This document shows, piece after piece, positions 1-19,158 of a DNA stretch of 64,000 nucleotides (positions within the stretch are counted from its first letter, which is position 1; each line of letters starts with the position of its first letter). The notes beneath the pieces are model-generated. The model was not told the origin of the DNA, ran no database searches, and saw only the letters and a program-made list of their open reading frames with translations. Origin of the DNA: an uncultured Flavobacteriaceae bacterium (lineage in GTDB: Bacteria > Bacteroidota > Bacteroidia > Flavobacteriales > Flavobacteriaceae); contig CANNCA010000004.1 in NCBI GenBank assembly GCA_947503005.1, positions 144,324-208,323 of the forward strand. Reading direction: 5' to 3'. The position numbers and the translations under genes are program-made.

Positions 1-685
1 ACTGGTACAGTACTTTAAAATGTACTTTCATTTTTTCCTTTGCCAGTTGAGGGTCCTGAGCTTTTATAGCTTCGAAAATATCTTTGTGCTCTTGAATGCC
101 TTTAAATGCCTGATCCTTGTCACAAACATGATATTTTTCGAAATTTGTTATTATTTCAGGTGTGATTATAAGCATGAACGTATCCATTGTACTGTTGCCG
201 CTTGCCTTAGCTATTGCTAAATGGAACAATAAATCTTCTTGAACCGCATCTTCTCCTCTGATTACTTTATCGCTATAAGCTTCTAATGCATACTGCATTT
301 GGTTCAGATCTTCTTTTGTTCTTCTCTGAGCTGCTAGACTTACGGTTTTTAATTCTAATAGAATCCTTGTCTCCACCAGCGATTTAAAATCAGGTTCTTC
401 CAGTCTTAGAATATCTTCAATCATACCGTTCATGGCCACTTGGCCGATGTCTGCAATGAAGGTTCCACTCTGGGGCTTTGATTTCAATATGCCATAAAAC
501 TCAAGCTTTTGGATGGCTTCCCGAACATTACTTCTACTCACTTCAAACTTTTCAGATAACATTCTTTCTGAAGGCAGTTTATCGCCAGGCTCAAGATTTT
601 TATAGTTGATTAAATCCCTAATCTTAGAGATGATACTGTTTTGAATTTCTTGATTTTCGTTTTTAGTGAGAATTTCTAATTTCAT
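1..685 (-). CDS. GntR/FadR-family transcriptional regulator (C-terminus runs off the window start; missing from the ORF track because no stop lies in the window)
   Basis: Manual translation of the minus strand from the ATG (complement of 683-685) gives MKLEILTKNENQEIQNSIISKIRDLINYKNLEPGDKLPSERMLSEKFEVSRSNVREAIQKLEFYGILKSKPQSGTFI... This is a canonical GntR winged HTH, followed by a helical FCD-like effector domain (...LLFHLAIAKASGN...). It is open for all 228 codons to position 1 and sits at the end of the alginate locus. Confidence 0.85.
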   Translation of the reverse strand, partial: MKLEILTKNENQEIQNSIISKIRDLINYKNLEPGDKLPSERMLSEKFEVSRSNVREAIQKLEFYGILKSKPQSGTFIADIGQVAMNGMIEDILRLEEPDFKSLVETRILLELKTVSLAAQRRTKEDLNQMQYALEAYSDKVIRGEDAVQEDLLFHLAIAKASGNSTMDTFMLIITPEIITNFEKYHVCDKDQAFKGIQEHKDIFEAIKAQDPQLAKEKMKVHFKVLYQ

Positions 686-715: not shown

Positions 716-744
716 TGGTTAACCAGATTGGTTTGTTAAATTTA
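716..744 (-). promoter_or_regulatory. Putative operator (TGGTTAACCA-gat-TGGTTTGTTA) plus weak -7-like box TAAATTTA, upstream of the GntR gene
   Basis: The perfect palindrome TGGTTAACCA lies at 716-725 and a degenerate second box at 729-738. TAAATTTA lies at 737-744. The site is 30 bp upstream of the GntR ATG and has the same layout as the sites at 10088, 14307 and 19120. Confidence 0.6.
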
Positions 745-6695: not shown

Positions 6696-9600
6696 TTAAA
6701 AGTCAATATTCATACCAATTGTAAACGTTCTAAATATTGGCGTACCTGCTCTCTGTGAACCAAAGGCTCGTACATTGCCGTTATCATCGTGCTCCGGGTT
6801 GAAACCATGATAATCATCAGCAGTTATATACACAAGGTTTTGAGCAGTAGCATATAGTCTTAACCCGTCTAAACCTATACGTGATGTTAAATCGTTTGAA
6901 AAATTATATCCAAGATTTACATTACGTAAAGAAAAATAGTCAGAACTAGCAATAACATCGCTCGTTACTACCTTTCGTTGGATAAAAGACACATCGGGTA
7001 CCAAACCAGCCGCGACAGCTTCTTCGGCACCTGTTCCTCTGGTCGTATTTCCGAACCAATTGAAGAAATATTCATCACCTATATTATTTACCTGACCACC
7101 GAGGCTTCCTTGGACCATGAAAGAGAGGTCAAAGTTTCCATATTGAAATTCATTGGTAAAACTGTAGATCAAATCAGGATAAGGATCCCCTAAAATGGTT
7201 TTGTCTTCATCTGTAATTAAACCATCGCCATTTAAATCTTTTACAATAGTTGCTCTAGATTCCCCGTTTATCCTGTTCCATGGTCTATCAACATAGGTTG
7301 TTCTAAATGAAGTTTCATCAAAAAGCTCTTCATCTACCACAAAACCCCAAAAAGATGAGATAGGCTCGCCGACCCTATTGATCCATAATGAATTTCTACC
7401 ATAAGTATCAGCTATCAAAGCATTATCTGAATCGGCAAAATCCAACAATTCGTTTTGGTTGGTAGATGCGATTAACGTAGAATTCCATCTAAAGTTCTCA
7501 TTTGCAATGTTTTTGGTGCGTAACTCAAATTCAAAACCTTTATTTTGAACTTCCCCTAAATTTACAATTCCCTGATCAAAACCAGTAACGTAAGAAACAG
7601 GGTTAGAAAGCAATAATTCATCACTAGTTCTCTTGTAATAATCAATGGAACCCGATATTCTATTACTGGCAAATCCGTAATCCAAACCTATAGTTAATTC
7701 TCTTGAAGATTCCCATTGCAAGCTAGGGTTTGCAATATTAAGCGGAGAAACACCTTGTGCGGTGCCATAGTTTGTATTTTGACTTAATGCTAGGTAAGGC
7801 CATGCATTTTCAACAATAGTACCCACATTAAAATTTTCAGTACCCGTAAAACCATAACTAGCTCTAAACTTAAGGTTACTAACGATATCACTATCTACCA
7901 AGAAATTTTCTTTAGCCACATTCCAACCCACGGATGCGGCAGGGAAGTTACCCCACTTAGTATCTGTACCAAATACAGAACTGCCGTCACGTCTAAAGGA
8001 AGCATTCACCAAATACCTATCCTTATAGGCATAATTTACACGAGCAAAATAACCTAGTTTTCTTTGGTCCGAATTAATTTCCGATACAATGGTATTTGCA
8101 GGATCAGCACCATTCATGTTTTTAAGACGATCATCAGTAAATCCACTACCATTGATTTGACTGATTTCAGTTCTTCTTTTCTGAATCGTTACACCACCCA
8201 ATAAATTCAGATCATGGTCCCCGAAATTTTTGGTATAATTTAAAGTATTATCATTAATTATTCTTGTACGGTATCTATTCTGCAAACCATACGCAGATCG
8301 GCTTGCACCGGATGCGTGGTGCTTGGTTCCATCCCATCTTGTTTGCTTTCTTTGATCAATAGTGACACCAACAGATGTTTTGGCCGTAAGACCATCTAGT
8401 ATTTCATAACTTAAATACGTTGATCCAAATAATTTTGTATTGATATCATAATGCTCTCGCTCAACATATTGTGCGTAGGGATTTGAATCGCCCGAGGTAC
8501 GAGGTCTGCTAGAACTTCCATCGCCATTGAGATCTAAGTTCACCAGATGATCTTCACGGAAGTAATCGCCCACACCAATATCTGGATAGTTTGCTCTATT
8601 AATAAACTGAAGTGATTCTTCAGTATGATAAATAGGTAACCAAGGGGATTGACGAGTAGGGTTATGAATAGATGTTGGCAAACGTCGCTGCTTGGTATAA
8701 GAAGGGGTTGCGCTAATACCAAACCTTAATTTATCACCAATTTTTGAATCTACCTTGACGTTTCCAGTGTATAATTTGAAATCATCAGTAATTACCACCC
8801 CTTCATCATGAAGATATCTCAAAGAAGAACTGAACTTCGTGTCCTCTGTTCCACCTCTTGCGGAAAGTGAGTGACTTGAAACAAAGCCTCCATCAAAGAA
8901 AACATCTTGCCAATCACGGTCAACTCCCGTAGTATTTCTTAATAGATCAATATACTGTGACTCTTCAGAAAGTGTGCCCGTGACTGATCGCTCTAAAGCA
9001 AACCACTCATCAGTATTTTTTTTGTAGTCTTCACTACCATGCGCCTGCTTGTACCCAGTATACGTTTGGTAACTGAATTTTGTTTTACCTGCCTTACCAC
9101 TCTTTGTCGTAATCAGTATAACACCATTTGCACCTTCACTACCGTAAATAGCTGCAGATGCAGCATCTTTTAATACTTCAAAAGACTCCACATCATTCAT
9201 GTCAATATTTCCAAGAAATTCAGAGCTCATAACTATACCATCAACAACTAGTGCAGGTCCTGAATCAGCAGCAACTGATCCAACACCTCTTATTGTGATA
9301 GTTGGAGCTCCCCCGGCTTCAGCGTTGGTAGCTTGTATGTTTACACCCGATACTTGACCAATAAGTGCATCATCAACTCTTGACACCGCTATTTGGTCTA
9401 AGGACTCATTGGTCACTTTGGATATAGAACCTGTAATAGTAGATTTTTTCTGAGTTCCATAACCTACCACAACCACCTCATCAAGTTGGCTAGCGTCTTC
9501 TACCAGGACAATATTTAGGGTAGTCTGCCCATTTACAGCAACTTCCTGTGTAGAGTAGCCTAGATAGCTTATTACTAAAGTAGCGGAAGCATCCACATTG

Positions 9601-9785
9601 TCAATCGTAAAATTGCCATCGAAATCGGTTTGCGTGCCGTTTGTGGTTCCTTTAACCACAACGCTTGCTCCGGGTAATGGGCCACTGGCATCAGCAACCG
9701 TTCCAGATACCGTCTGAGCCGATACCGCTGAGAAACAAAAAAATGCTCCGAACAACAACAGCCTTTTTAATAACGTAATCTTCAT
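6696..9785 (-). CDS. susC: SusC-family TonB-dependent outer-membrane transporter
   Basis: 1029 aa. It has a signal peptide and a carboxypeptidase-regulatory-like N-domain (VSGTVADASGPLPGASVVVKGTTNGTQTDFDGNFTI). A plug region (VVVGYGTQKK ... ITIRGVGS) is followed by a long beta-barrel ending ...IGMNIDF. Confidence 0.92.
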   Translation of the reverse strand: MKITLLKRLLLFGAFFCFSAVSAQTVSGTVADASGPLPGASVVVKGTTNGTQTDFDGNFTIDNVDASATLVISYLGYSTQEVAVNGQTTLNIVLVEDASQLDEVVVVGYGTQKKSTITGSISKVTNESLDQIAVSRVDDALIGQVSGVNIQATNAEAGGAPTITIRGVGSVAADSGPALVVDGIVMSSEFLGNIDMNDVESFEVLKDAASAAIYGSEGANGVILITTKSGKAGKTKFSYQTYTGYKQAHGSEDYKKNTDEWFALERSVTGTLSEESQYIDLLRNTTGVDRDWQDVFFDGGFVSSHSLSARGGTEDTKFSSSLRYLHDEGVVITDDFKLYTGNVKVDSKIGDKLRFGISATPSYTKQRRLPTSIHNPTRQSPWLPIYHTEESLQFINRANYPDIGVGDYFREDHLVNLDLNGDGSSSRPRTSGDSNPYAQYVEREHYDINTKLFGSTYLSYEILDGLTAKTSVGVTIDQRKQTRWDGTKHHASGASRSAYGLQNRYRTRIINDNTLNYTKNFGDHDLNLLGGVTIQKRRTEISQINGSGFTDDRLKNMNGADPANTIVSEINSDQRKLGYFARVNYAYKDRYLVNASFRRDGSSVFGTDTKWGNFPAASVGWNVAKENFLVDSDIVSNLKFRASYGFTGTENFNVGTIVENAWPYLALSQNTNYGTAQGVSPLNIANPSLQWESSRELTIGLDYGFASNRISGSIDYYKRTSDELLLSNPVSYVTGFDQGIVNLGEVQNKGFEFELRTKNIANENFRWNSTLIASTNQNELLDFADSDNALIADTYGRNSLWINRVGEPISSFWGFVVDEELFDETSFRTTYVDRPWNRINGESRATIVKDLNGDGLITDEDKTILGDPYPDLIYSFTNEFQYGNFDLSFMVQGSLGGQVNNIGDEYFFNWFGNTTRGTGAEEAVAAGLVPDVSFIQRKVVTSDVIASSDYFSLRNVNLGYNFSNDLTSRIGLDGLRLYATAQNLVYITADDYHGFNPEHDDNGNVRAFGSQRAGTPIFRTFTIGMNIDF

Positions 9786-9975
9786 AAATTTAAATTTTAG
9801 TTAAAATAGTTAGATAATTTGCTTTTTAACATTTAACAGGTCGCATGCATGCTAAATGGAATTTACCGAAGATCCGTATTCTAAAAATTCAATTGTTTAT
9901 CGTAATTTTAAAGAATATGATATCAATGGTATCGTATAAGTATTACTTCCCTTCAAAATGAAGTAATTGATTTTT

Positions 9976-10007
9976 AAAAGGATGGGCGTGCACCCGTCCT
10001 TTTTTTT
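9976..10007. terminator. Bidirectional intrinsic-terminator-like hairpin inside the susC 5' leader
   Basis: aaaaggatggg (9976-9986), loop cgtgca, cccgtcc (9993-9999), then T8 (10000-10007). The A-tract before and T-tract after give terminator geometry on both strands. A second perfect 8-bp hairpin (attacttc 9942-9949 / gaagtaat 9960-9967) lies adjacent. Confidence 0.5.
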
Positions 10008-10061
10008 AGGCAAGATTTTTATTTTTCCATATAGTTCGTTAGTTCTTTGAGTGATTGAAAT

Positions 10062-10116
10062 TGGTTTTCCATTTTGGTTTTCCATACTGGTTAACCAATT
10101 TGGTTTACCAAATATA
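10062..10116 (-). promoter_or_regulatory. susC promoter: -7 box TATATTTG fused to four 13-bp-phased TGGTTnnCCA boxes
   Basis: Boxes: TGGTTTTCCA 10062-10071, TGGTTTTCCA 10075-10084, TGGTTAACCA 10088-10097, TGGTTTACCA 10101-10110. CAAATATA at 10109-10116 equals TATATTTG on the minus strand and matches the Bacteroidota TAnnTTTG -7 consensus. Confidence 0.65.
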
Positions 10117-10229
10117 TGTTATTACTTTGTTAAATAAAAATTAATTTAAAATTTTATGATTTGAATTTTAGGAACCTAACAATAAAGTTGCCATTGGGTT
10201 AAGAAATTCTCATTTAGGGTGCTTTCGTA

Positions 10230-10982
10230 CTATGAAAAAACAAGTCCCCCGTTGATATCAACGTTCGCACCTGTCATAAAAGATGTTTCGGAAGAAGCCA
10301 AACAAGCGACAGTATTCGCGATTTCTTCTGCTGTGCCTTGTCTACGAAGTGGCGTCATACCTTCTACTTTTTTGCGAACTTCATCTTTGGTAAAATCATC
10401 ATGAAATTTGGTAGCTATCATTCCTGGACACAAAGAATTTACCCGAATACCTTTCGGTCCCACTTCTTTTGCTAAACCTCTGGTAAAGGTCATTACTGCG
10501 CCTTTTGAAGTTGCGTATGCCAAAGACCCGCCACCACCGCCATCTCTACCCGCTTGGGAGGCAATGTTCACTATTGAACCCCCGGACCCCATATGTGGCA
10601 AAGCCGCCTTGGATACCAAAAATGTAGAGTTCAAGTTTAAGAACATAACCTTATTGAAGAAAGACTCATCCATTTCCGCGATTGTTTTCCTAGCCACTAA
10701 ACCTCCTGCATTGTTGACTACAATATCAATAGTGTCACCGAAAGCTGCTGTTGTTTCTTTAATCAAATTGTCAACATCCGATTTTTTGGTCATATCGCCT
10801 TTGACAATAATGGCAGTTCCACCTGTAGCTTCTATTTCTTTCAAGGTTTCTTTGGCATTTTCTTCGTTGTGAAAGTAATTGGCAACTACTTTTGCACCTT
10901 CCTTTGCCAATCTCGCACTTATCGCCCTTCCTATATCTCTTGTTCCACCAGTTACAATGGCCACTTTTCCTTTCAAATCCAT
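10230..10982 (-). CDS. SDR-family oxidoreductase (candidate DEH / 2-keto-3-deoxy sugar-acid reductase)
   Basis: 250 aa. It has a Rossmann motif (VAIVTGGTRDIGRAI), NNAG, and the catalytic YATSKGA. It lies in the alginate locus next to kdgF. Confidence 0.8.
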   Translation of the reverse strand: MDLKGKVAIVTGGTRDIGRAISARLAKEGAKVVANYFHNEENAKETLKEIEATGGTAIIVKGDMTKKSDVDNLIKETTAAFGDTIDIVVNNAGGLVARKTIAEMDESFFNKVMFLNLNSTFLVSKAALPHMGSGGSIVNIASQAGRDGGGGGSLAYATSKGAVMTFTRGLAKEVGPKGIRVNSLCPGMIATKFHDDFTKDEVRKKVEGMTPLRRQGTAEEIANTVACLASSETSFMTGANVDINGGLVFS

Positions 10983-11017
10983 AGATGTTGTTTTTAATTA
11001 ATTCATTATCGTCTTAA

Positions 11018-11782
11018 CTAAATATTGTATACGCCACCATTGATATCTAACGTTGCGCCAGTAATAAAGCCGTCATACTCTGATGCCAGATATAGGACCG
11101 CTCGAGCTACGTCATCTGCATTTCCGGCTCTTTGAATTGGAATGCCTGCAATTGTATTTTCTGCAGATTCTTGGGTTGTATGGGTGTTGTGGAATGAAGT
11201 GCCAAGAATTAGTCCGGGGGCCACGGCATTCACCCTTGTGCCTTGTGGACCCAACTCGGAAGCAAGTGCTCTTGTAAATGTTAAGATTGCTCCTTTACTG
11301 GTAGAATATACTAATGATCCAGGGTGACCCCCTTTACGTCCAGCAAGAGATGCCAAATTAACAATACTGCTATTGTCATTTTTTGCTAGATAAGGAGCTG
11401 CCGCTCGCGTCACGAACATCATGGAGGTAAGGTTGATGTCCATTACTCTGTGCCAGAATTCAGCCTCCATTTCGTTCAGCATTTTACGTGCAACAAGTGA
11501 ACCTGCATTGTTGATGAGTGTGTCTAAACCACCGAAAGCTTCTACTGCTTTTTCAACCAATGCGTTTGCATCAGCTTCTTTTGTTAAATCACCACCTATA
11601 GCAATCGCCTTTTGTCCCTTTCTAATTGCGTATTCCGTCAATTGGTCCGCCGTCTCGACGCTGGAAAAATAGTGGATGGCTACATTGGCTCCGCTATCAA
11701 TAAAGTGTTTGGTTATTGCTTCGCCAATGCCTTGCGCGCCTGCGGTGATGAGTACATTTTTTCCGGTCAGTTTACTTTTCAT
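11018..11782 (-). CDS. SDR-family oxidoreductase (second copy, divergent paralog)
   Basis: 254 aa. Motifs present: VLITAGAQGIGEAI, NNAG and YSTSKGA. Confidence 0.8.
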   Translation of the reverse strand: MKSKLTGKNVLITAGAQGIGEAITKHFIDSGANVAIHYFSSVETADQLTEYAIRKGQKAIAIGGDLTKEADANALVEKAVEAFGGLDTLINNAGSLVARKMLNEMEAEFWHRVMDINLTSMMFVTRAAAPYLAKNDNSSIVNLASLAGRKGGHPGSLVYSTSKGAILTFTRALASELGPQGTRVNAVAPGLILGTSFHNTHTTQESAENTIAGIPIQRAGNADDVARAVLYLASEYDGFITGATLDINGGVYNI

Positions 11783-11804
11783 CCCTTAGTTTTATTACCT
11801 TTCT

Positions 11805-12182
11805 TTAAGACTCTTTATCTCCAAAATAAGACACCCCGCCACCTGTTAAGAAATCTTCTCTTACAGGGCTAAAGGTGTCGATTAGTATTCCCTCTTCTAA
11901 GCAAACTGCACTGTGCAATAAATTAGGTTCAATATAGACCCCATCTCCTGCTTCTACGATTTTCTTTTCTCCATCAATTTCAAATTCAAATTTGCCCGAA
12001 ACACAATAAGTAGCTTGGGTATGAAAATGCTGATGTGGAGAACCTAATGCTCCTGTTTCGAATTTCACTTTTACCATCATAATTTGGTTATCGTAACCTA
12101 AGAATTTTCTTGATACCCCTCCACCGAGTTCTTCCCATTCCAGTTCTTTTGAGATGATGTACTTCTCACTAAATCGATTCAT
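11805..12182 (-). CDS. kdgF: Cupin-family KdgF-like protein (unsaturated uronate linearisation)
   Basis: 125 aa single cupin with metal-binding His motif (GSPHQHFHTQATYCVSGKFEF ... EPNLLHS). Its size and its position between lyases and SDRs are typical of kdgF in alginate and pectin loci. Confidence 0.75.
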   Translation of the reverse strand: MNRFSEKYIISKELEWEELGGGVSRKFLGYDNQIMMVKVKFETGALGSPHQHFHTQATYCVSGKFEFEIDGEKKIVEAGDGVYIEPNLLHSAVCLEEGILIDTFSPVREDFLTGGGVSYFGDKES

Positions 12183-12230: not shown

Positions 12231-14282
12231 TTACTTGGATGGTGTACCGGGGCCTACCGTTGCTTCTCTAAACCATACTTCGGCATAACTACCATTTTCA
12301 TATTGTTTGGCAATATCACCACCGTATGTTTCTGCGCCGGTACTCCATACCATATTAGTTTCAGGACTTTTACCATTGGTTTGGTTATAAACGCCTTGCT
12401 TGAAATAATTCAGTTCTCCACTGTAGGCCGTGGCTCGTTCTGTCCCATCTTGTCCTATGGGCACAAATAATCTCCTTGTTTGTTCCGGGAGGTCTGACTT
12501 ATTTACGTATTCGGATGCGATGAGATTTTTAGTAAATGTTTTTGTTTCATGCTTGTCACTTTTGAAGGTGAGATACATGATGCCTTTATATACATTTATT
12601 TCATAGCTGAATTCTTCACCCAGTTCTATTCCGTCCTTAGGCTCGGCCGGATAGTCATTTTTACCTGAACCTACAACAGACAGATCATACCCCCATACGG
12701 GGGTAGAAAAATCCCATCTGCCAGCATTGTCATCTCCTGCTGTATTGATTTCATAGTTCCAAAAGACAGAGCCTTTCGTGTGACCAGGAAACTTCTTGTA
12801 AAATATTTTCAGCGGTTCATTTTCATGTCCTTCACCGCTATGTATTTGCCCGATTACGGTTGAGTAAGAGGCAGCAACCCTCGCATCACCGGAAACAGAG
12901 ACTTGCATAACCTTGCAGGTACCTGTTAGTTTGCCACCTTCTTCAGGCGTCCATTCTCTTTTTTCGTGCAACTCCGTTCTGGTATTGCTGGAATTTTTTG
13001 AAGTGACACCAGAATTTGGTGTTTTATAGACCACCCAACGTCTGGTACCATCAATCACGGTGTAGAAAAAATCCTTGTGTTCAAACTCAGTGATATCTTC
13101 TACTGTAGTTCCATCGCCCAACAATATTTTAAATTTATCCATAAAAGGAATCACTTCGTTTGGATAGACTGTTTTTGTACTCATGCCATCGTTGGCCTCG
13201 AAATATCCGGCATTGGAGATGGCATCATCACTAATGGTAATATTTGCTGATTTAAACCAGACCTCCGCGTAATTTCCATCGGCGTATTGTTTTTGAAGAT
13301 CACCCCCATGGGTTTCGGCACCAGAACACCAGACTTTATTTACTTTAGGGTCTTTACCGTTTGTTTGGTTGTACGTTCCCAATTTGAAAAAGAGCCCCTC
13401 GCCAGTATACGCTTCGGTTCGCTCGAGGCCGTCCTGACCAATGGGGACGAATAGTTTGTTGACTTGTTCTGGTATGTCCGAACGATTCACATATTCAGAG
13501 GAAATAAGATTTTTAGTAAATGTTTTGGTTTCATGGCCTTCACTCGAGAATGTTAGATGCATCATACCCTTCTTAATCTCGACTTCATAACTGAATTCTT
13601 CACCTAGAGCAATTCCATCTTCCGGTTCTGGGGGATAGGTGTTTTCATTCGTGCCGACAACAGAAAAGTCGTAACCCCATATGGGATAGGAATAATCCCA
13701 TCTTTTTGAATTATCAACACCTGCGGTATTGATTTCATAGTGCCAAAAGACAGACCCTTTTTCATGACCAGGGAATTTTTTATAGAATATTTTGAGTGGT
13801 TCGTTCTCATGCCCATCCGCACTGTGAATCTGCCCCACCACTACCGAATATGTAGAAGCAACCCGAGCATCGCCCGTAGTTGACACATTCATTACTTTAA
13901 GGGTGGCATTCATTTTGGCATCGGTCATTGGCGACCATTTTTTTAACTGGGCCAATTCGGTTCTTGTATTGTTCGAAGTACCATGGGTATTTCCCGCATT
14001 TGGGGTTTTAAATACGACCCAATCGCCATTGTCGTCACTTTCCGTATAAAAGAAATCTTTGTGTTCATAATCAGTAGCCAGACCTACGTTGGAGCCATCG
14101 CCCAAGATTAAATTCCAATGTTGAAAAAATGGTATGATGCTGTGTGGATTACTTCCTTGTGCCATTTCATCACTTTTTGTGTCGCTTTCCTTTTTCGTTT
14201 TGTCCGCACAATTCATGAACAACAGGACACCTAGCATTAATGGATAAGGGAAAAAATTCGATTTAAATATTTTGAAGCTCAT
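12231..14282 (-). CDS. Two-domain (internally duplicated) PL7-superfamily beta-jelly-roll lyase, lipoprotein
   Basis: 683 aa with lipobox LLFMNCADK. It has two roughly 310-aa repeats. Each carries NNTRTEL, GQIHS..GHENEPLKIFYKKFPGH, and FFKLGTYNQ or YFKQGVYNQ, which follows the PL7-like R-x-E-L / QIH / YFKxGxYxQ pattern. The exact CAZy family is not certain. Confidence 0.7.
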   Translation of the reverse strand: MSFKIFKSNFFPYPLMLGVLLFMNCADKTKKESDTKSDEMAQGSNPHSIIPFFQHWNLILGDGSNVGLATDYEHKDFFYTESDDNGDWVVFKTPNAGNTHGTSNNTRTELAQLKKWSPMTDAKMNATLKVMNVSTTGDARVASTYSVVVGQIHSADGHENEPLKIFYKKFPGHEKGSVFWHYEINTAGVDNSKRWDYSYPIWGYDFSVVGTNENTYPPEPEDGIALGEEFSYEVEIKKGMMHLTFSSEGHETKTFTKNLISSEYVNRSDIPEQVNKLFVPIGQDGLERTEAYTGEGLFFKLGTYNQTNGKDPKVNKVWCSGAETHGGDLQKQYADGNYAEVWFKSANITISDDAISNAGYFEANDGMSTKTVYPNEVIPFMDKFKILLGDGTTVEDITEFEHKDFFYTVIDGTRRWVVYKTPNSGVTSKNSSNTRTELHEKREWTPEEGGKLTGTCKVMQVSVSGDARVAASYSTVIGQIHSGEGHENEPLKIFYKKFPGHTKGSVFWNYEINTAGDDNAGRWDFSTPVWGYDLSVVGSGKNDYPAEPKDGIELGEEFSYEINVYKGIMYLTFKSDKHETKTFTKNLIASEYVNKSDLPEQTRRLFVPIGQDGTERATAYSGELNYFKQGVYNQTNGKSPETNMVWSTGAETYGGDIAKQYENGSYAEVWFREATVGPGTPSK

Positions 14283-14306: not shown

Positions 14307-14335
14307 TGGTTAACCAGTTTGGTTTACCAAAAATA
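14307..14335 (-). promoter_or_regulatory. Promoter/operator: -7 box TATTTTTG fused to TGGTAAACCA-N3-TGGTTAACCA
   Basis: TGGTTAACCA lies at 14307-14316 and TGGTTTACCA at 14320-14329. CAAAAATA at 14328-14335 equals TATTTTTG on the minus strand. The site is 24 bp upstream of the ATG at 14282. Confidence 0.65.
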
Positions 14336-14502: not shown

Positions 14503-16740
14503 CTATTCGTTGCGTATTAAATTCCAGACCTCTCCCGGCTTGAGTTCCTTTTCTGTCTTCTTTCCTTTAACATCTGTAATGGTCATAATGCTTTTCTCCG
14601 TTCCAAGCGCATGAATTTGAATTTTGTTGACGCAATGTTTTATGAAAAGATCCGTCTCCAAAGAAAGTTGAATGCTCAGTTCTTCAATTTTTAGGTTCTT
14701 TACGTCAAAGAAGTAAAAGCGATTATCCTTACTGATGCTTATTGAATTGTTACCAGCAGTTTCTCGGGCCGTATTATTTACATTCCATCCATAATAAGAG
14801 AATTCATCATCTGTTTCATCAATTCTATTGTCGTATCCCCGATAGGGGTAAATAAGTGTTATGAAACTAAAATTCTTTTGATTGATTTTTGAAACGATAC
14901 TCCAATTTTTCCCTCTTGCCCCTGAATTAACCACCGTATCTAATTTTGTTAACTGTAGAATATCATGACCACTCGCGTCTGGAGCCGTTGCTCGAATAAG
15001 ATAAGGGCCATTTTCATTGGTATAATGGCCCTGCCACACTTGTTTGTATTCATGTGGAGCTTCTGACGAGAAGTTATCTTTCACGATCCAAAAGTCATCC
15101 TTTACGAATATGACCTGTCTTGTATAGCTTACACCTACATTCTCAAATCCATCATGACTACCTATGAATAAATCAAAGTCTTCATTGGTTGACCATGCAA
15201 TGACTTCTGGGTTCGGCAAACTACCAAACTTGCCAAAACCACTTCCTCCTTTATTAGACGTCCATTGTTTACCTTGTAGCTCATCGTCAACTAGGGCGAC
15301 ATTTTTGACCTTTGAGTTTTTGAACAGTTCGAAATCCTTTAGCGAATAGCGTACTTGATAATTTGGTAAAATCACATGTCCATTTGCAATGGCCTGAACC
15401 CCTAGCATATCGCCATGTTGATGGTCAGGTTTCTCGTCGTCGAGGCCAGCGCTTACAATCATCATTTTGCTGTCAGGGTTCCAACCTTCACGCATTATAT
15501 AATAATGCGTGTCAGTAAAAGCGAGAGAGCCGTAAGAAGGTTTTATTCGTTGAATATTTTCAAGTAATTCAACCTGTGACTGATTTAGAAACCAGTACAT
15601 TCTTTCATCCACCTTGTCAGAAGCGAAATAGCCGAATTCAGGATCTTCAAAAAGTACATAACCCAAAGTCATCGCTCCGGAAATGTCATTTTTTTCTGCC
15701 CATGGTATTTCCGTATCATCTTGAAGTACGGGAGCGCTTTTATCAGGATAAGCAATTTTCACAAGCGTGGAGAACAGACCTTTAAGTTTGGTCGTCCAAT
15801 CATCGGCTAGCGGAATATGATTGACTTTGGCCAGTTGGTACACATAGTAGTAGTTATTTATGTCGCTCATGTGATAATGAACGGAACGTTCAAATTGAAA
15901 ACCGTCTTCATTGATTTCTTTATTTAAATGCTCATCAAGCCGCTGTATCGCCCTATTATACCACAAGTCAGTTCCTTCAAAATCACGAAAAAGAATGGAA
16001 AGCATCGCCAAGGCAGACATTCCTCTGGTCTGATGGTTACCAGGTTGAAACTTATCATTCCTATCATAAAGATGTTGGCCATGTTGTAAAAGCGTAGCTA
16101 TGGTTGTAAGCTGATCCTGATCGGAATATTCGGGCTCATTGAGAATCATGTTATGGATCCACAACCAATTAAGAATCCTGTAGCCCGACCTAAAAACCTC
16201 ATAAACCCCGTTACCATCTTCTATTCTTTCATATTGGCCGGATTCTAGCGCAGCATTAAGCGAACGGATCTGGTTTTCGAAATAGCTGATGTATTTTGGG
16301 TCTCTTTCCTCATTGAAATAAAGTAAAATAATATCTACCATCTTATGTTGCCTTGCCAAATGGCGCAGGGCATAGGCATTCACTTTTTGACCATTGAGAT
16401 AATTAAATGGCAAGATCCATTGTGTGGAATCAGTGTATTTTCCCAAATGATCCAAAGCTCTTTTTTTATGGACTTTCTCATTCTGATAGAGACCTTTGTA
16501 ATGTGGGAGTCTTTGGTCTAAGGTGTTATAATCATAGAAGAAGCGTTCAGAAAATCTTTCCCTGAAATATTTTGCCAGTTGTGCATCGGTTAGTTCCCCG
16601 TTTACTTCAATTTGCTCTATTACTTCATTTTTCAGAAAAGCTCCTAATTCATCATTTGTCAAAACTTTATTCGCGGGGATTTGCTGAGCAAAAAGACCAA
16701 GTGAAACGACTGAAACTAGATAGAAAACGTAAACTTTCAT
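14503..16740 (-). CDS. Heparinase II/III-like polysaccharide lyase (probably a PL17-type oligoalginate lyase; PL15-like not excluded)
   Basis: 745 aa with a signal peptide. It has an (alpha/alpha)-toroid-like N-half with an N-H pair (QPGNHQTRGMSA) and ERSVHYHM, then a beta-rich C-half. Its size and its position between PL6 and PL7 genes match flavobacterial alginate PULs. Confidence 0.6.
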   Translation of the reverse strand: MKVYVFYLVSVVSLGLFAQQIPANKVLTNDELGAFLKNEVIEQIEVNGELTDAQLAKYFRERFSERFFYDYNTLDQRLPHYKGLYQNEKVHKKRALDHLGKYTDSTQWILPFNYLNGQKVNAYALRHLARQHKMVDIILLYFNEERDPKYISYFENQIRSLNAALESGQYERIEDGNGVYEVFRSGYRILNWLWIHNMILNEPEYSDQDQLTTIATLLQHGQHLYDRNDKFQPGNHQTRGMSALAMLSILFRDFEGTDLWYNRAIQRLDEHLNKEINEDGFQFERSVHYHMSDINNYYYVYQLAKVNHIPLADDWTTKLKGLFSTLVKIAYPDKSAPVLQDDTEIPWAEKNDISGAMTLGYVLFEDPEFGYFASDKVDERMYWFLNQSQVELLENIQRIKPSYGSLAFTDTHYYIMREGWNPDSKMMIVSAGLDDEKPDHQHGDMLGVQAIANGHVILPNYQVRYSLKDFELFKNSKVKNVALVDDELQGKQWTSNKGGSGFGKFGSLPNPEVIAWSTNEDFDLFIGSHDGFENVGVSYTRQVIFVKDDFWIVKDNFSSEAPHEYKQVWQGHYTNENGPYLIRATAPDASGHDILQLTKLDTVVNSGARGKNWSIVSKINQKNFSFITLIYPYRGYDNRIDETDDEFSYYGWNVNNTARETAGNNSISISKDNRFYFFDVKNLKIEELSIQLSLETDLFIKHCVNKIQIHALGTEKSIMTITDVKGKKTEKELKPGEVWNLIRNE

Positions 16741-16751
16741 TTCGATTTAAG

Positions 16752-19070
16752 TTAGTACATCAGTTTCAACGGAAGATTTTCTTGAACGACCAAATCTCCT
16801 GAATTTTTCAATGCATTATCGGCATGCGAATTGTTTTTTGCCCCCCACAAACGAGCCACCATTTTTACACGATTGTTTGCAAAAGTGTTGCCGGAAATAT
16901 CAACATTGATAATACCATAGGTATTGAGTAAAATACCGTTTTCTTCCCTAGCACCACAATTGGTAAACGTACTGTTGGTTACGATGAGATTTCCACCGAC
17001 CGTAGATTCGTCGTAACCACCTCTATAGTAGTTAATGGTATTCTTTTCAACGCCATCAAATCGACAGTTGTCGATAAATACATTTTCCGCATTGTAATCA
17101 CCGCGGTCATCATCTTCTGCGGCCAATTCAATTCCGTTTGCGCAGTTTTGAATGCGCGTAGACTTGAATTTGACATATTCCGAAAAAGAGTGTTTATACC
17201 CTTTCAACACATAGTCAAAGTTTGATATTTCAGAATTATTGACTTCTAAATTGTAAAGACTTGACATGTGCTCTTTCAAGCTGGCGAAGGCGTAATTTTC
17301 TCCGTTTCCTTCAAGTGCCAGCGATATCAAACTAAGCTCGCCCTTTGGATTCATTTCAAACGCAGGCGTTTTGGCCTCACCACTAAACGTAATGAGAGCT
17401 TTCTTTCCGTCAACAGCAGAACGTATGCTAAGTTTTTTATTAATCCTAAGTGATGATTTCAAGTCATATCGGTCGCTTGTCAAGCGTATCGTATCACCAC
17501 TGTTAGCTTCCTCAACTACCTTACGCAATTCACTTACGGAAGCTGCTGAATGCGTTTTTGCCTCGTTTTTCGTTTCACTGAAATCGTACCAATCCGGACC
17601 GTATTGTGACAGGTCCATAAGGTTTGGCTTATCGCCTTTGACACCTGAGATAGCTCCGACCTTATTATTATTCTCTCGTGAATTACCGAATAAATCTTCT
17701 GTAATCTGGTCAAACTCAAAACCGTTGTAGAGAGCAACATCCGGCAGGTCATTGGTTGGGATAAAAATGTCTTCCTCAAGTTTAGCAATTGAGAAATCCT
17801 CTTGCTTAAAGACGGAATCATGTTTGAACGAGACGCCTTGATTGTTTATCAAATTACTTTTAAACGAAATGCCATCCAATGAATCATGGGCTACAATGGG
17901 ATGCTTATCCGCCTTCACGTTGTAAATAAGATTGTTCGCAACAATAGTACGGATAGGTCTTTCAGATCGGATTTCTGAAGCAGGCAACACATCCTTTTGG
18001 TCTACGTTTGATCCCACTCCAAATTGCAAGGGGGAAGTACAATTGACCCAAAAGTTATGCGCCACTACAACATCTGTAACTTGTATATATCGATTGAGCG
18101 GCGATTTGGGAATACCGTTCATTACGGCAAGCGGACTTCTAAAAACCTTTCCTTTTAGGTTATAGAAATAGTTGTTTGTTACCCAATGACCTGTACCTAT
18201 CAACCGTACACCCCCAATTTGTTCTGAATTTGTATCTCCGATGAAATAATTCCCATCTACGATACAATAGTTTCCGTGTCTTGTTACTAAGGAACCCTCG
18301 CTCTTGTAAAAGACATTATTTCGAAACTCATTGAAATTCGTTTTGCTTGAAATAACTTCTACTTCCCCATTACATCGATCAAAAAAATTATTTGCCACTA
18401 GGGTGTAGCTGGGCGCCATTGAAGTAAAACTATTCCCGATTTGGATGGTCTCGGCACTAGGTCCTCCTTTGGGAGGCCTCGACCCAAAATAGTTATTCGT
18501 AATCTTATGGTAATTTTTGATGCTTTTATTTCCGGCTAGGTCAACCCGAATGGTGGGACCTCTATTTGATTTACCCGCTATGTAACATTGATTAAGCTCG
18601 TTATAGCGCCCTTTAAACTGTATCCATAAATCAGTCTCGTTTCTTTGTGGCTTGTTGTAGTCTAGAATTACACTGTTGGTGACCTTGGAATGGTTGGCGA
18701 CCGTATCTTGATTAATAGCAAACTCGATTACAGCTCGCGTAGGAGATGCCCCATCCGTAAAGTATAACCCGTTAACTACCAGGTATTCACCTCCAAGTTT
18801 TATATCGGATTTTCCTTTTATAATTACCTTGCCAGGAGTTTCCGCACGTAAGGTAATGGGTTGATTTTCATTTCCATACCCGACAAATCGAATTTGTACG
18901 TCATTCCAATCTCCATTGGCCATGACGATATCATCTCCAGGACTTGCTTTCTCTATCGCTTCGGATAATTCAGTGCTATCTTTTACATAGATTTCATTTG
19001 AAATGGAATTTTCAGCACAAGAAAATAGCAGGAGCACTATGCAGACTAATAATAGATGTTTTTTTATCAT
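16752..19070 (-). CDS. PL6-family alginate lyase (two-domain, right-handed beta-helix)
   Basis: 772 aa with a lipoprotein-like signal (LLFSCAEN). PL6-type blocks are present: SPGDDIVMANGDWNDVQIRF, AETIQIGNS, and NFFDRCNGEVEVISSKTNFNEFRNNVFYKSEGSLVTRHGNYCIVDGNYFIG. A second beta-helix-like C-terminal half follows. Confidence 0.8.
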   Translation of the reverse strand: MIKKHLLLVCIVLLLFSCAENSISNEIYVKDSTELSEAIEKASPGDDIVMANGDWNDVQIRFVGYGNENQPITLRAETPGKVIIKGKSDIKLGGEYLVVNGLYFTDGASPTRAVIEFAINQDTVANHSKVTNSVILDYNKPQRNETDLWIQFKGRYNELNQCYIAGKSNRGPTIRVDLAGNKSIKNYHKITNNYFGSRPPKGGPSAETIQIGNSFTSMAPSYTLVANNFFDRCNGEVEVISSKTNFNEFRNNVFYKSEGSLVTRHGNYCIVDGNYFIGDTNSEQIGGVRLIGTGHWVTNNYFYNLKGKVFRSPLAVMNGIPKSPLNRYIQVTDVVVAHNFWVNCTSPLQFGVGSNVDQKDVLPASEIRSERPIRTIVANNLIYNVKADKHPIVAHDSLDGISFKSNLINNQGVSFKHDSVFKQEDFSIAKLEEDIFIPTNDLPDVALYNGFEFDQITEDLFGNSRENNNKVGAISGVKGDKPNLMDLSQYGPDWYDFSETKNEAKTHSAASVSELRKVVEEANSGDTIRLTSDRYDLKSSLRINKKLSIRSAVDGKKALITFSGEAKTPAFEMNPKGELSLISLALEGNGENYAFASLKEHMSSLYNLEVNNSEISNFDYVLKGYKHSFSEYVKFKSTRIQNCANGIELAAEDDDRGDYNAENVFIDNCRFDGVEKNTINYYRGGYDESTVGGNLIVTNSTFTNCGAREENGILLNTYGIINVDISGNTFANNRVKMVARLWGAKNNSHADNALKNSGDLVVQENLPLKLMY

Positions 19071-19119: not shown

Positions 19120-19158
19120 TGGTTAACCAGTTTGGTTTACCAAAAATACATATATTTG
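19120..19158. promoter_or_regulatory. Divergent promoter region: double-box operator flanked by a minus-strand -7 box (TATTTTTG) and a plus-strand -7 box (TATATTTG)
   Basis: TGGTTAACCA lies at 19120-19129 and TGGTTTACCA at 19133-19142. CAAAAATA at 19141-19148 is the minus-strand -7 box. TATATTTG at 19151-19158 is the plus-strand -7 box. A TTTG at 19131-19134 inside the operator could serve as the plus-strand -33 element. Confidence 0.6.

What the first reader, a model, noticed from the sequence alone, without database searches (positions are those of the whole stretch)
10062..10116. Four operator boxes in exact 13-bp phase in front of susC
At the transporter promoter the two-box motif is extended to four. 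The boxes are TGGTTTTCCA (10062), TGGTTTTCCA (10075), TGGTTAACCA (10088) and TGGTTTACCA (10101). Start-to-start spacing is exactly 13, 13 and 13 bp, directly downstream of the TATATTTG -7 box.

Thirteen bp is about 1.25 helical turns, so successive boxes rotate about 90 degrees around the helix. This geometry suggests a spiralling or higher-order repressor array rather than a simple dimer site. The extra boxes are less palindromic (TTTTCC core) and could be low-affinity cooperative sites. They might give the SusC/D operon a different induction threshold from the lyase promoters.
Basis: seen in the sequence. Interest (0 to 1): 0.6.

Follow-up and report, generated by a model that had tools for sequence, protein, structure and literature searches.

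The report
Four-box alginate repressor operator at susC
Four evenly spaced repressor-binding boxes sit on the promoter of the alginate-uptake gene susC; this is the published AusR operator design of marine flavobacteria (one, two or three copies) with one extra, weaker copy, so it is a small variation and not a new mechanism.

Summary
Four 10-nt boxes lie at 10062, 10075, 10088 and 10101, exactly 13 nt apart, far beyond chance. The genes run on the minus strand. Box 1 (10110..10101) overlaps the -7 promoter box TATATTTG (10116..10109) by 2 nt. Boxes 2-4 follow downstream, 277-325 nt upstream of the susC ATG.

The locus is an alginate PUL. It has two-box copies at two lyase promoters and one good box plus a degenerate one upstream of its GntR/FCD regulator. 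This matches the AusR system of Zobellia galactanivorans (Dudek 2020), which has single, double and triple operators, 3-nt spacers, fusion to the -7 box, and the triple at the susC-like promoter.

The 13-nt phase and the third box are conserved across genera: 78 of 401 Flavobacteriaceae genomes hold a -7-fused triple. The fourth box is a 13-nt unit gain. It is shared with the closest relative and with four congeners at paralogous susC promoters, and is absent from the next orthologues. Four-box arrays occur in 5 of 401 family genomes.

Boxes 3-4 (TGGA...) score about 5-6 bits below boxes 1-2. Binding, cooperativity and a shifted induction threshold remain untested.

In passing: two conserved hairpins in the susC leader fit the antisense strand, suggesting a DonS-like sRNA.

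The parts
10109..10116 (-). -7 promoter box TATATTTG (Bacteroidota consensus TAnnTTTG). It overlaps box 1 by 2 nt.
   Evidence: The same fusion is seen in every orthologous susC promoter.
10101..10110 (-). Box 1, TGGTAAACCA. It fits the canonical FadR-subfamily operator consensus TKGTN2-3ACMA. It probably covers the transcription start (inferred).
10088..10097 (-). Box 2, TGGTTAACCA, a perfect 10-nt palindrome.
10075..10084 (-). Box 3, TGGAAAACCA. One half-site is imperfect (TGGA). Its position and phase are conserved across genera.
10062..10071 (-). Box 4, TGGAAAACCA, an extra 13-nt unit (box plus spacer). It is shared with the closest relative G017 and absent from the next orthologues.
9786..10061 (-). 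Long susC leader between the array and the ATG. No other consensus -7 box was seen in it by eye.
9976..10007 (+). Hairpin GGATGGG-CGTGCA-CCCGTCC followed by T8, terminator-like on the + strand (antisense to susC).
9942..9967 (+). Second conserved 8-bp hairpin (ATTACTTC/GAAGTAAT) just upstream of the terminator on the + strand.
6696..9785 (-). susC-type TonB-dependent transporter (1029 aa), first gene downstream of the array.
14307..14329 (-). Two-box operator fused to a -7 box upstream of the two-domain PL7 lyase.
19120..19142 (-). Two-box operator fused to a -7 box upstream of the PL6 lyase, in the divergent intergenic region.
716..738 (-). One canonical box (TGGTTAACCA) plus a degenerate second box (TAACAAACCA) upstream of the regulator gene.
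   Evidence: compare PausR
2..685 (-). GntR/FCD (FadR-subfamily) regulator, 233 aa in full. Its C-terminus lies just outside the window.

Best explanation
The four boxes are a tandem array of operators for the locus-encoded GntR/FadR-subfamily repressor, the counterpart of AusR of Zobellia galactanivorans. They sit on the promoter that drives susC-susD and the downstream genes of an alginate utilisation locus in a Maribacter-like flavobacterium.

Shown here:
- The box sequence, the 13-nt phase and the fusion of box 1 to the -7 box.
- The same motif at two lyase promoters (two boxes) and at the regulator's own promoter (one good box plus a degenerate one).
- Restriction of the motif to this locus in the genome.
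- Conservation of a three-box array at orthologous susC promoters across genera.
- A fourth box gained as one 13-nt unit and kept in some lineages.

Taken from the Zobellia work: AusR binds such boxes cooperatively, represses transcription, and is released by unsaturated alginate oligosaccharides.

Inferred:
- Strong boxes 1-2 occlude the -7 box and the transcription start.
- The weaker boxes 3-4 are filled cooperatively once 1-2 are occupied. This lengthens the repressor-covered stretch to 49 bp in the early transcribed region.
- The longer array tightens repression of the most costly, highly expressed unit and may block read-through from the upstream lyase-kdgF-SDR operon, which has no terminator before this promoter.
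- Copy number changes by slippage or unequal exchange of the 13-nt unit.
For: Box anatomy and statistics.

Gene content: PL6, PL17, PL7, kdgF, two SDRs, susC/D and a GntR/FCD regulator, followed outside the window by an MFS transporter, an SDR, a KDG kinase and a KDPG aldolase.

Published AusR architecture (PMC7641319): consensus TKGTN2-3ACMA, pairs separated by three bases, overlap with the -7 box, a third operator at Ptbdt, a single operator at PausR whose second copy was lost by G-to-A changes, EMSA with Hill coefficients above 1, and release by alginate trisaccharides. The window reproduces each sequence feature, including the degenerate PausR copy TAACAAACCA.

The regulator's best solved relative is 6AZ6, the same entry reported for AusR.

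Comparative data:
- All 14 orthologous susC loci carry boxes in 13-nt phase fused to TATATTTG. Most have three; L012's third is degenerate.
- In the genus, every array of 3 or more boxes lies upstream of a SusC-type gene, and two-box arrays lie upstream of lyase or TIM-barrel genes, with one two-box exception at a susC (L095).
- The -7-fused triple occurs in 78 of 401 family genomes, 0 in the control.
- Four-box arrays occur in 5 of 401, 0 in the control. Three of the four foreign ones are upstream of susC.
- Box 4 is present in G017 (SusC N-terminus 97.8% identical). It is absent in G005 (92.8%), G014 (89%) and G011 (86.6%).
- Among the six four-box arrays of the genus, box 4 is TGG[AG][AT]AACCA plus 'att', and conservation stops abruptly after that.

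PWM scores: boxes 1-2 about 17.5 bits, boxes 3-4 about 12-13 bits, still within the top 13 of about 64,000 window positions.

No terminator was found between the upstream SDR stop and the array.
Against: The regulator was not compared directly with the Zobellia AusR sequence.

Boxes 3-4 break the GT..AC core on one half-site (TGGA). In the window box 4 is an exact copy of box 3, as expected for a recent and possibly neutral duplication. The nearest three-box orthologues evidently manage without it.

The array is about 280 nt from the susC ATG. A hairpin with a short U-run lies in between, so some transcripts from this promoter might stop early.

The PWM comparison is partly circular because it was trained on boxes 1-2.
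Confidence: 0.8

Rival explanations
1. Box 4 is a neutral by-product of replication slippage in a 13-nt tandem repeat. The functional operator is the conserved two- or three-box core, and the fourth copy changes nothing measurable.
For: In the window box 4 is identical to box 3. Copy number differs between close relatives: 4 in the window and G017, 3 in G005, G014 and G011. G011's last box resembles box 4 of other genomes, as if a unit had been lost. Four-box arrays are rare in the family, 5 of 401 against 78 of 401 with a triple.
Against: Box 4 has persisted since the split of the window genome and G017. In six congeners it keeps TGG..AACCA+att, while the sequence immediately after it is unalignable. 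Four-box arrays arose in at least three further genera, again at susC promoters. Phase is never broken.
Confidence: 0.3
2. The box-bearing promoter mainly produces a short leader transcript that ends at the hairpin at 9976-10007. The susC operon would then be controlled chiefly by attenuation or antisense RNA in the leader, so the array gates a riboregulatory unit and not susC directly.
For: A conserved hairpin flanked by an A-run and a T-run lies 54 nt downstream of box 4. In the sense direction it is followed by TTTT. The leader is long, about 310 nt, and conserved.
Against: In 15 of 19 orthologues the sense-strand hairpin carries a C-A mismatch that becomes a G.U pair on the other strand. 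The long U-run (6-9) is also on the other strand, so the terminator is built for antisense transcription. No other consensus -7 box was seen by eye between the hairpin and the ATG. In Zobellia a 9.5-kb transcript is attributed to Ptbdt.
Confidence: 0.1
3. The distal TGGA-type boxes are recognised by something other than the GntR repressor, either a second DNA-binding protein or, being transcribed, an RNA-binding factor.
For: Position 4 is A or G instead of T in box 3 of most susC arrays across genera. This systematic departure could mark a different specificity. Boxes 2-4 probably lie in the 5' UTR.
Against: The boxes keep the exact 13-nt register, the TGG/CCA ends and the A/T spacers of the canonical boxes. 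No second regulator gene is present in the locus. In some genera TGGAAAACCA occupies the box-1 position fused to the -7 box, so it functions as an ordinary operator variant there.
Confidence: 0.05

Closest known systems
AusR operators of the alginate utilisation system of Zobellia galactanivorans DsijT (Dudek et al. 2020, Nucleic Acids Res 48:7786, PMC7641319)
   Same: A GntR/FadR-subfamily regulator encoded in the PUL. Ten-nt boxes fit TKGTN2-3ACMA, have 3-nt spacers and are fused to the -7 box TAnnTTTG. There are two boxes at lyase promoters, the largest array at the susC-like (tbdt) promoter, and one good plus one G-to-A degenerated box at the regulator's own promoter. The overall gene order is the same (susC/D ... 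regulator - MFS - SDR - kdgK - kdgA).
   Different: There are four boxes here, whereas the maximum reported there is three. The organism is different (Maribacter-like). No biochemical or genetic data exist for this locus. Sequence identity of the two regulators was not measured.
NanR of Escherichia coli on the (GGTATA)3 operator (Horne et al. 2021, Nat Commun 12:1988, PMC8012715)
   Same: A FadR-subfamily GntR repressor whose dimers assemble side by side and cooperatively on a short tandem array over a promoter and are released by the pathway's sugar. It is the best structural precedent for more than two dimers packed on adjacent repeats.
   Different: NanR uses 6-nt direct repeats and contacts between N-terminal extensions. 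Here the units are 10-nt palindromes at 13-nt spacing. The regulator has only about 15 residues before its HTH domain.
AraR/ara and GanR/gan operator pairs of Bacillus subtilis (as discussed in PMC7641319)
   Same: A modular number of operators: two at catabolic promoters for tight, cooperative repression and one at the regulator gene for mild autoregulation.
   Different: The regulator families and operator spacing differ, and some of those cases involve DNA looping. No three- or four-unit contiguous arrays are known there.
DonS-type cis-antisense sRNAs of Bacteroides PULs (summarised in Ryan et al. 2020, PMC7366714)
   Same: This applies only to the side observation: a small terminator-ended transcription unit encoded divergently in the leader of a susC gene.
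   Different: No expression data exist here. The Rfam hit to a Bacteroides sRNA is far below threshold (24 bits against 80). The PUL is regulated by a GntR repressor, not a sigma/anti-sigma pair.

Membership tests
AusR-type operator arrays of flavobacterial alginate utilisation systems | The box fits the FadR-subfamily operator consensus TKGTN2-3ACMA. | tested here: met
   Boxes 1 and 2 (TGGTAAACCA, TGGTTAACCA) fit exactly. The consensus is quoted.
AusR-type operator arrays of flavobacterial alginate utilisation systems | The extra boxes also fit the consensus. | tested here: inconclusive
   Boxes 3 and 4 (TGGAAAACCA) have one perfect half-site (ACCA) and one with A in place of the core T. Their PWM score is about 12 bits against about 18. 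The same variant recurs at this position in many genera.
AusR-type operator arrays of flavobacterial alginate utilisation systems | Adjacent operators are separated by three bases (13-nt register). | tested here: met
   Start-to-start spacing is 13, 13 and 13 nt. The register is conserved in all relatives examined.
AusR-type operator arrays of flavobacterial alginate utilisation systems | The operator overlaps the -7 box TAnnTTTG at strongly repressed promoters. | tested here: met
   TATATTTG (10116..10109) overlaps box 1 by 2 nt. TATTTTTG does the same at 14330 and 19143.
AusR-type operator arrays of flavobacterial alginate utilisation systems | Graded copy number: pairs at lyase promoters, the largest array at the susC-like promoter, and a single canonical box with a G-to-A degenerated partner at the regulator promoter. 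| tested here: met
   Two boxes at 14307 and 19120, four at 10062, and TGGTTAACCA plus TAACAAACCA at 716-738. Genus-wide pattern, with one two-box susC promoter (L095).
AusR-type operator arrays of flavobacterial alginate utilisation systems | A GntR/FadR-subfamily regulator is encoded in the same alginate locus. | tested here: met
   GntR + FCD domains. The protein is 233 aa, its best PDB relative is 6AZ6, as reported for AusR. It falls below every NCBIfam equivalog cut-off.
AusR-type operator arrays of flavobacterial alginate utilisation systems | The regulator is the sequence orthologue of Zobellia AusR. | not tested
   No Zobellia AusR sequence or locus was retrieved.
AusR-type operator arrays of flavobacterial alginate utilisation systems | The repressor binds the boxes and is released by unsaturated alginate oligosaccharides. 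| not testable with these tools
   This needs EMSA or footprinting. It has been shown only for Zobellia PausR and PalyA3.
NanR-type multi-dimer arrays | Tandem direct hexamer repeats (GGTATA)n. | tested here: not met
   The units are 10-nt inverted repeats at 13-nt spacing.
NanR-type multi-dimer arrays | An N-terminal extension mediates dimer-dimer contacts. | tested here: not met
   The GntR domain starts at residue 16. In the alignment to NanR, query residue 16 matches chain residue 34.
DonS-like PUL cis-antisense sRNA (side observation) | A small transcription unit divergent from susC, lying in its leader and ending in an intrinsic terminator. | tested here: inconclusive
   Two hairpins plus a U6-9 run are conserved on the antisense strand, with G.U pairs that would be C-A mismatches on the sense strand. 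No promoter was identified and there are no expression data. Rfam is below threshold.

The most novel reading that the evidence does not exclude
Operator copy number at susC promoters is a selectable dial. Gain or loss of one 13-nt unit (3 <-> 4 boxes) by slippage retunes basal leakiness and inducer threshold of alginate uptake between closely related strains. Four dimers at about 86 degrees per step close almost exactly one turn around the helix (about 343 degrees), forming a defined repressor collar over the early transcribed region. That collar would work together with a conserved antisense sRNA that terminates just short of it.
Probability: 0.2. Interest if true: 0.5.

Novelty: new member of a known kind. 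Interest (0 to 1): 0.25.

Why it matters
It shows that the published AusR design generalises well beyond Zobellia. That design has graded operator number, 13-nt register and fusion to the -7 box. A -7-fused triple array is present in about one fifth of sampled Flavobacteriaceae genomes. The array can also grow to four units, nearly always at susC promoters. This gives natural 2-, 3- and 4-box promoters, some of them differing between close relatives, for testing how operator number sets repression strength and induction threshold of polysaccharide uptake in marine bacteria. It does not reveal a new regulatory principle.

Tried and rejected
- The supplementary figures of Dudek et al. (S4, with the aligned promoters of 13 flavobacteria) are not held. 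I could not check whether a four-box case was already drawn there.
- The Zobellia orthologous susC promoter was not retrieved. The genome-contig scan returned only paralogous Zobellia susC loci.
- A literature search for AusR after 2020 gave nothing beyond citing reviews.
- A 3-mismatch two-box hit at C4:101019 lies in a stretch that reads as open frame by eye (not checked with ORF or family tools) and was dismissed as chance.
- Rfam gave only sub-threshold hits in 9600-10400.
- A 66-codon sense ORF starting at the ATG inside box 3 was read by eye from the minus strand. It is cut to 16 codons in G005, so it was rejected as a leader peptide.
- The first alignment (A1) mixed orientations and was replaced by A2.
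- Reading the array as ACCA-N3-TGGT palindromes centred on the spacers was considered and rejected. That orientation is the inverse of the GntR GT..AC core.

Full report
**1. Observation**

The plus strand at 10062-10110 reads TGGTTTTCCA ttt TGGTTTTCCA tac TGGTTAACCA att TGGTTTACCA. Start-to-start distances are exactly 13, 13 and 13 nt. Tandem Repeats Finder reports a 13-nt period with 3.8 copies.

This is not chance:
- TGGTNNNCCA occurs 26 times in the window against 6.7 +/- 2.6 in dinucleotide shuffles.
- A two-box pattern with up to 2 mismatches occurs 10 times against 0.04 expected.
- In the whole 4.58-Mb genome (39% G+C), two-box matches with up to 2 mismatches are found only in this locus.

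All genes here are on the minus strand. In the direction of transcription the order is:
- the -7 box TATATTTG (10116..10109), which overlaps box 1 by two bases;
- box 1, TGGTAAACCA (10110..10101);
- box 2, TGGTTAACCA;
- box 3, TGGAAAACCA;
- box 4, TGGAAAACCA.

The susC ATG is at 9785, so the array lies 277-325 nt upstream of the gene, ahead of a long leader.

**2. Context**

On the minus strand the locus encodes:
- a PL6 lyase (16752-19070) and a PL17-like lyase (14503-16740);
- a two-domain PL7 lyase (12231-14282);
- a KdgF-like cupin and two SDRs (10230-12182);
- the array, followed by susC (6696-9785) and susD;
- a PKD/CBM protein, an unassigned 476-aa protein and two PL7 lyases;
- a GntR+FCD regulator (2-685).

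The regulator is 233 aa in full. Just outside the window it is followed by an MFS transporter, an SDR, a KDG kinase and a KDPG aldolase. This is a complete alginate utilisation locus.

The same motif occurs at three more promoters:
- Two boxes fused to a -7 box upstream of PL6 (19120-19142).
- Two boxes fused to a -7 box upstream of the PL7 lyase (14307-14329).
- One perfect box plus a degenerate one (TAACAAACCA) upstream of the regulator gene (716-738).

**3. What is already known**

Dudek et al. 2020 (PMC7641319) described exactly this design for AusR, the GntR/FadR-subfamily repressor of the alginate utilisation system of Zobellia galactanivorans:
- Operators fit TKGTN2-3ACMA.
- Pairs are separated by three bases.
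- Operators overlap the -7 box TAnnTTTG at strongly repressed promoters.
- A third operator is present at Ptbdt, upstream of the susC-like gene.
- PausR has a single canonical operator, whose second copy lost its palindrome through two G-to-A changes.

They also showed the following:
- AusR shifts PausR and PalyA3 cooperatively, with Hill coefficients of 2.7 and 1.7.
- Binding depends on the operator.
- Unsaturated alginate trisaccharides release it.
- Deleting ausR derepresses the locus.

The window reproduces every sequence feature, down to the G-to-A degenerate copy at the regulator promoter. Its regulator has the same best solved relative, 6AZ6, as reported for AusR. I could not compare the two regulator sequences directly. 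[quoted passage not shown]

**4.

A scan of one genome per species returned 14 loci with a SusC 37-88% identical to the window's. They come from Maribacter, Cellulophaga, Croceitalea, Allomuricauda and Flagellimonas. The closest named one is Maribacter sp. 2307UL18-2.

All carry boxes about 300-400 nt upstream of the susC ATG, in 13-nt register and fused to TATATTTG. Most have three boxes; in one (L012) the third is degenerate.

Within the window's own genus (22 genomes), tblastn of the flanking genes shows a clear pattern. Every array of three or more boxes is upstream of a SusC-type gene. Two-box arrays are upstream of lyase or TIM-barrel genes, with one two-box exception at a susC (L095).

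Four-box arrays occur in six genomes of the genus:
- the window;
- G017, whose SusC N-terminus is 97.8% identical;
- G006, G008, G001 and G010, where they precede paralogous susC genes (38-57% identity).

For the window's own susC orthologue, the next relatives have three boxes: G005 (92.8%), G014 (89%) and G011 (86.6%). The simplest reading is a gain of one 13-nt unit in the common ancestor of the window genome and G017, with separate gains or promoter exchange at the paralogues.

Among the six four-box arrays, box 4 is TGG[AG][AT]AACCA followed by 'att'. The next ten bases are unalignable. That sharp edge argues for constraint on box 4 where it exists.

Across the family:
- A -7-fused three-box pattern (up to 1 mismatch) is present in 78 of 401 genomes and 64 of 302 genera, with no hit for the reversed control.
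- A four-box pattern is present in 5 of 401 genomes, again with no control hit.
- Three of the four foreign four-box arrays lie upstream of SusC-type genes. The fourth lies upstream of a T9SS-secreted protein next to a PL6 gene.

The triple is therefore a widespread standard. The quadruple is a rare, recurrent extension, almost always at susC.

**5. Strength of the boxes**

I trained a position weight matrix on boxes 1-2 of 34 arrays. It scores boxes 1-2 at about 17.5 bits and boxes 3-4 at about 12-13 bits. TGGAAAACCA scores 12.1 bits and is still among the best 13 of about 64,000 window positions.

The weakness comes from A or G replacing the core T of one half-site. This recurs at box 3 in many genera.

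**6. Mechanism**

*Shown:* the anatomy and its conservation.

*Borrowed from Zobellia:* repressor binding, cooperativity and release by alginate oligosaccharides.

*Inferred:*
- Boxes 1-2 occlude the -7 box and the probable start site.
- Boxes 3-4, in the early transcribed region, are filled cooperatively and extend the covered stretch to 49 bp. This would tighten repression of the transporter unit.
- They may also hinder read-through from the upstream lyase-kdgF-SDR operon. No terminator was found between that operon and the array, and read-through into the Ptbdt unit was proposed in Zobellia.

The geometric remark is correct arithmetic: 13 bp is about 1.24 turns, or about 86 degrees per step. 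It is not evidence for a particular assembly. E. coli NanR, with three FadR-type dimers packed on (GGTATA)3 (PMC8012715), shows that such arrays are feasible in this subfamily. Its repeat type and N-terminal extension are not shared. A different induction threshold for susC/D is plausible but untested.

**7. Rivals**

- The main rival is that box 4 is a neutral slippage product. It is identical to box 3 in the window and is missing in near relatives. Its retention, with a sharp conservation edge, and its recurrence at susC promoters in other genera argue against that but do not exclude it.
- A second rival is that the promoter feeds a short leader RNA ending at the hairpin at 9976-10007. This is weakened by the strand analysis in section 8.

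**8. Seen in passing**

The leader holds two conserved hairpins (9942-9967 and 9980-9999).

In 15 of 19 orthologues the GC-rich stem has a C-A mismatch on the susC-sense strand that becomes a G.U pair on the opposite strand. Four different sequence variants show this. The long T-run (6-9) is also on that opposite strand.

RNAalifold on the antisense strand finds both stems. The U.G variants in the second stem would likewise be mismatches in the sense direction.

This looks like the 3' end of a small RNA transcribed antisense to the susC leader, stopping about 54 nt short of the operator array. It resembles the DonS-type PUL antisense RNAs of Bacteroides (PMC7366714). No promoter or expression evidence is available, and Rfam gave only a sub-threshold sRNA hit.

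**9. Verdict**

This is a real feature and a correctly recognised operator array, but it follows an already published design. The window adds a new member with one more, weaker copy. The survey adds evidence that the triple array is widespread and the quadruple recurrent. Interest is modest.

Noticed in passing
window 9942-10007 (+ strand): Two conserved hairpins plus a T8 run in the susC leader fit the strand antisense to susC. In 15 of 19 orthologues the sense strand has a C-A mismatch where the antisense strand has a G.U pair, and the long U-run is only on the antisense side. This is a candidate DonS-like cis-antisense sRNA that ends about 54 nt before the operator array. No promoter or expression evidence was found.
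   Followed up: partly
L080, L083, L085, L087 (promoter regions around locus position 1550-1800): Nearly the same promoter-plus-four-box cassette (TGGTCAACCA aat TGGTTAACCA gta TGGAAAACCA aaa TGGATAACCA att) precedes three different susC paralogues in congeners (98%, about 57% and 45% identity to the window's SusC N-terminus). This suggests the promoter/operator module is copied or homogenised between PULs.
   Followed up: partly
L110 1501-1549 (genome G046): An array of TGGTTAACCA followed by three identical TGGAAAACCA boxes lies upstream of a T9SS-secreted Lamin-tail-domain protein next to a PL6-like gene. It is the only four-box array found that is not upstream of susC.
   Followed up: partly
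other genera, e.g. G189:C1:3978955-3978998, G259:C3:34286-34329, G400:C23:82456-82499, G351:C3:265036-265079: Some three-box arrays are flanked by a perfect -7-box match on both strands. One triple operator may therefore be shared by two divergent promoters.
   Followed up: no
genome contig C4:140149-144050, just upstream of window position 1: The regulator gene is followed by an MFS transporter, an SDR, a KDG kinase and a KDPG aldolase (the aldolase above the NCBIfam cut-off). The cytoplasmic steps and the inner-membrane transporter are thus part of the same locus, only cut off by the window edge.
   Followed up: yes
window 9885-10085 (- strand): A 66-codon ORF starts at the ATG inside box 3 and runs through the leader (read by eye). 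It is truncated to 16 codons in the close relative G005, so it is probably not a gene.
   Followed up: partly
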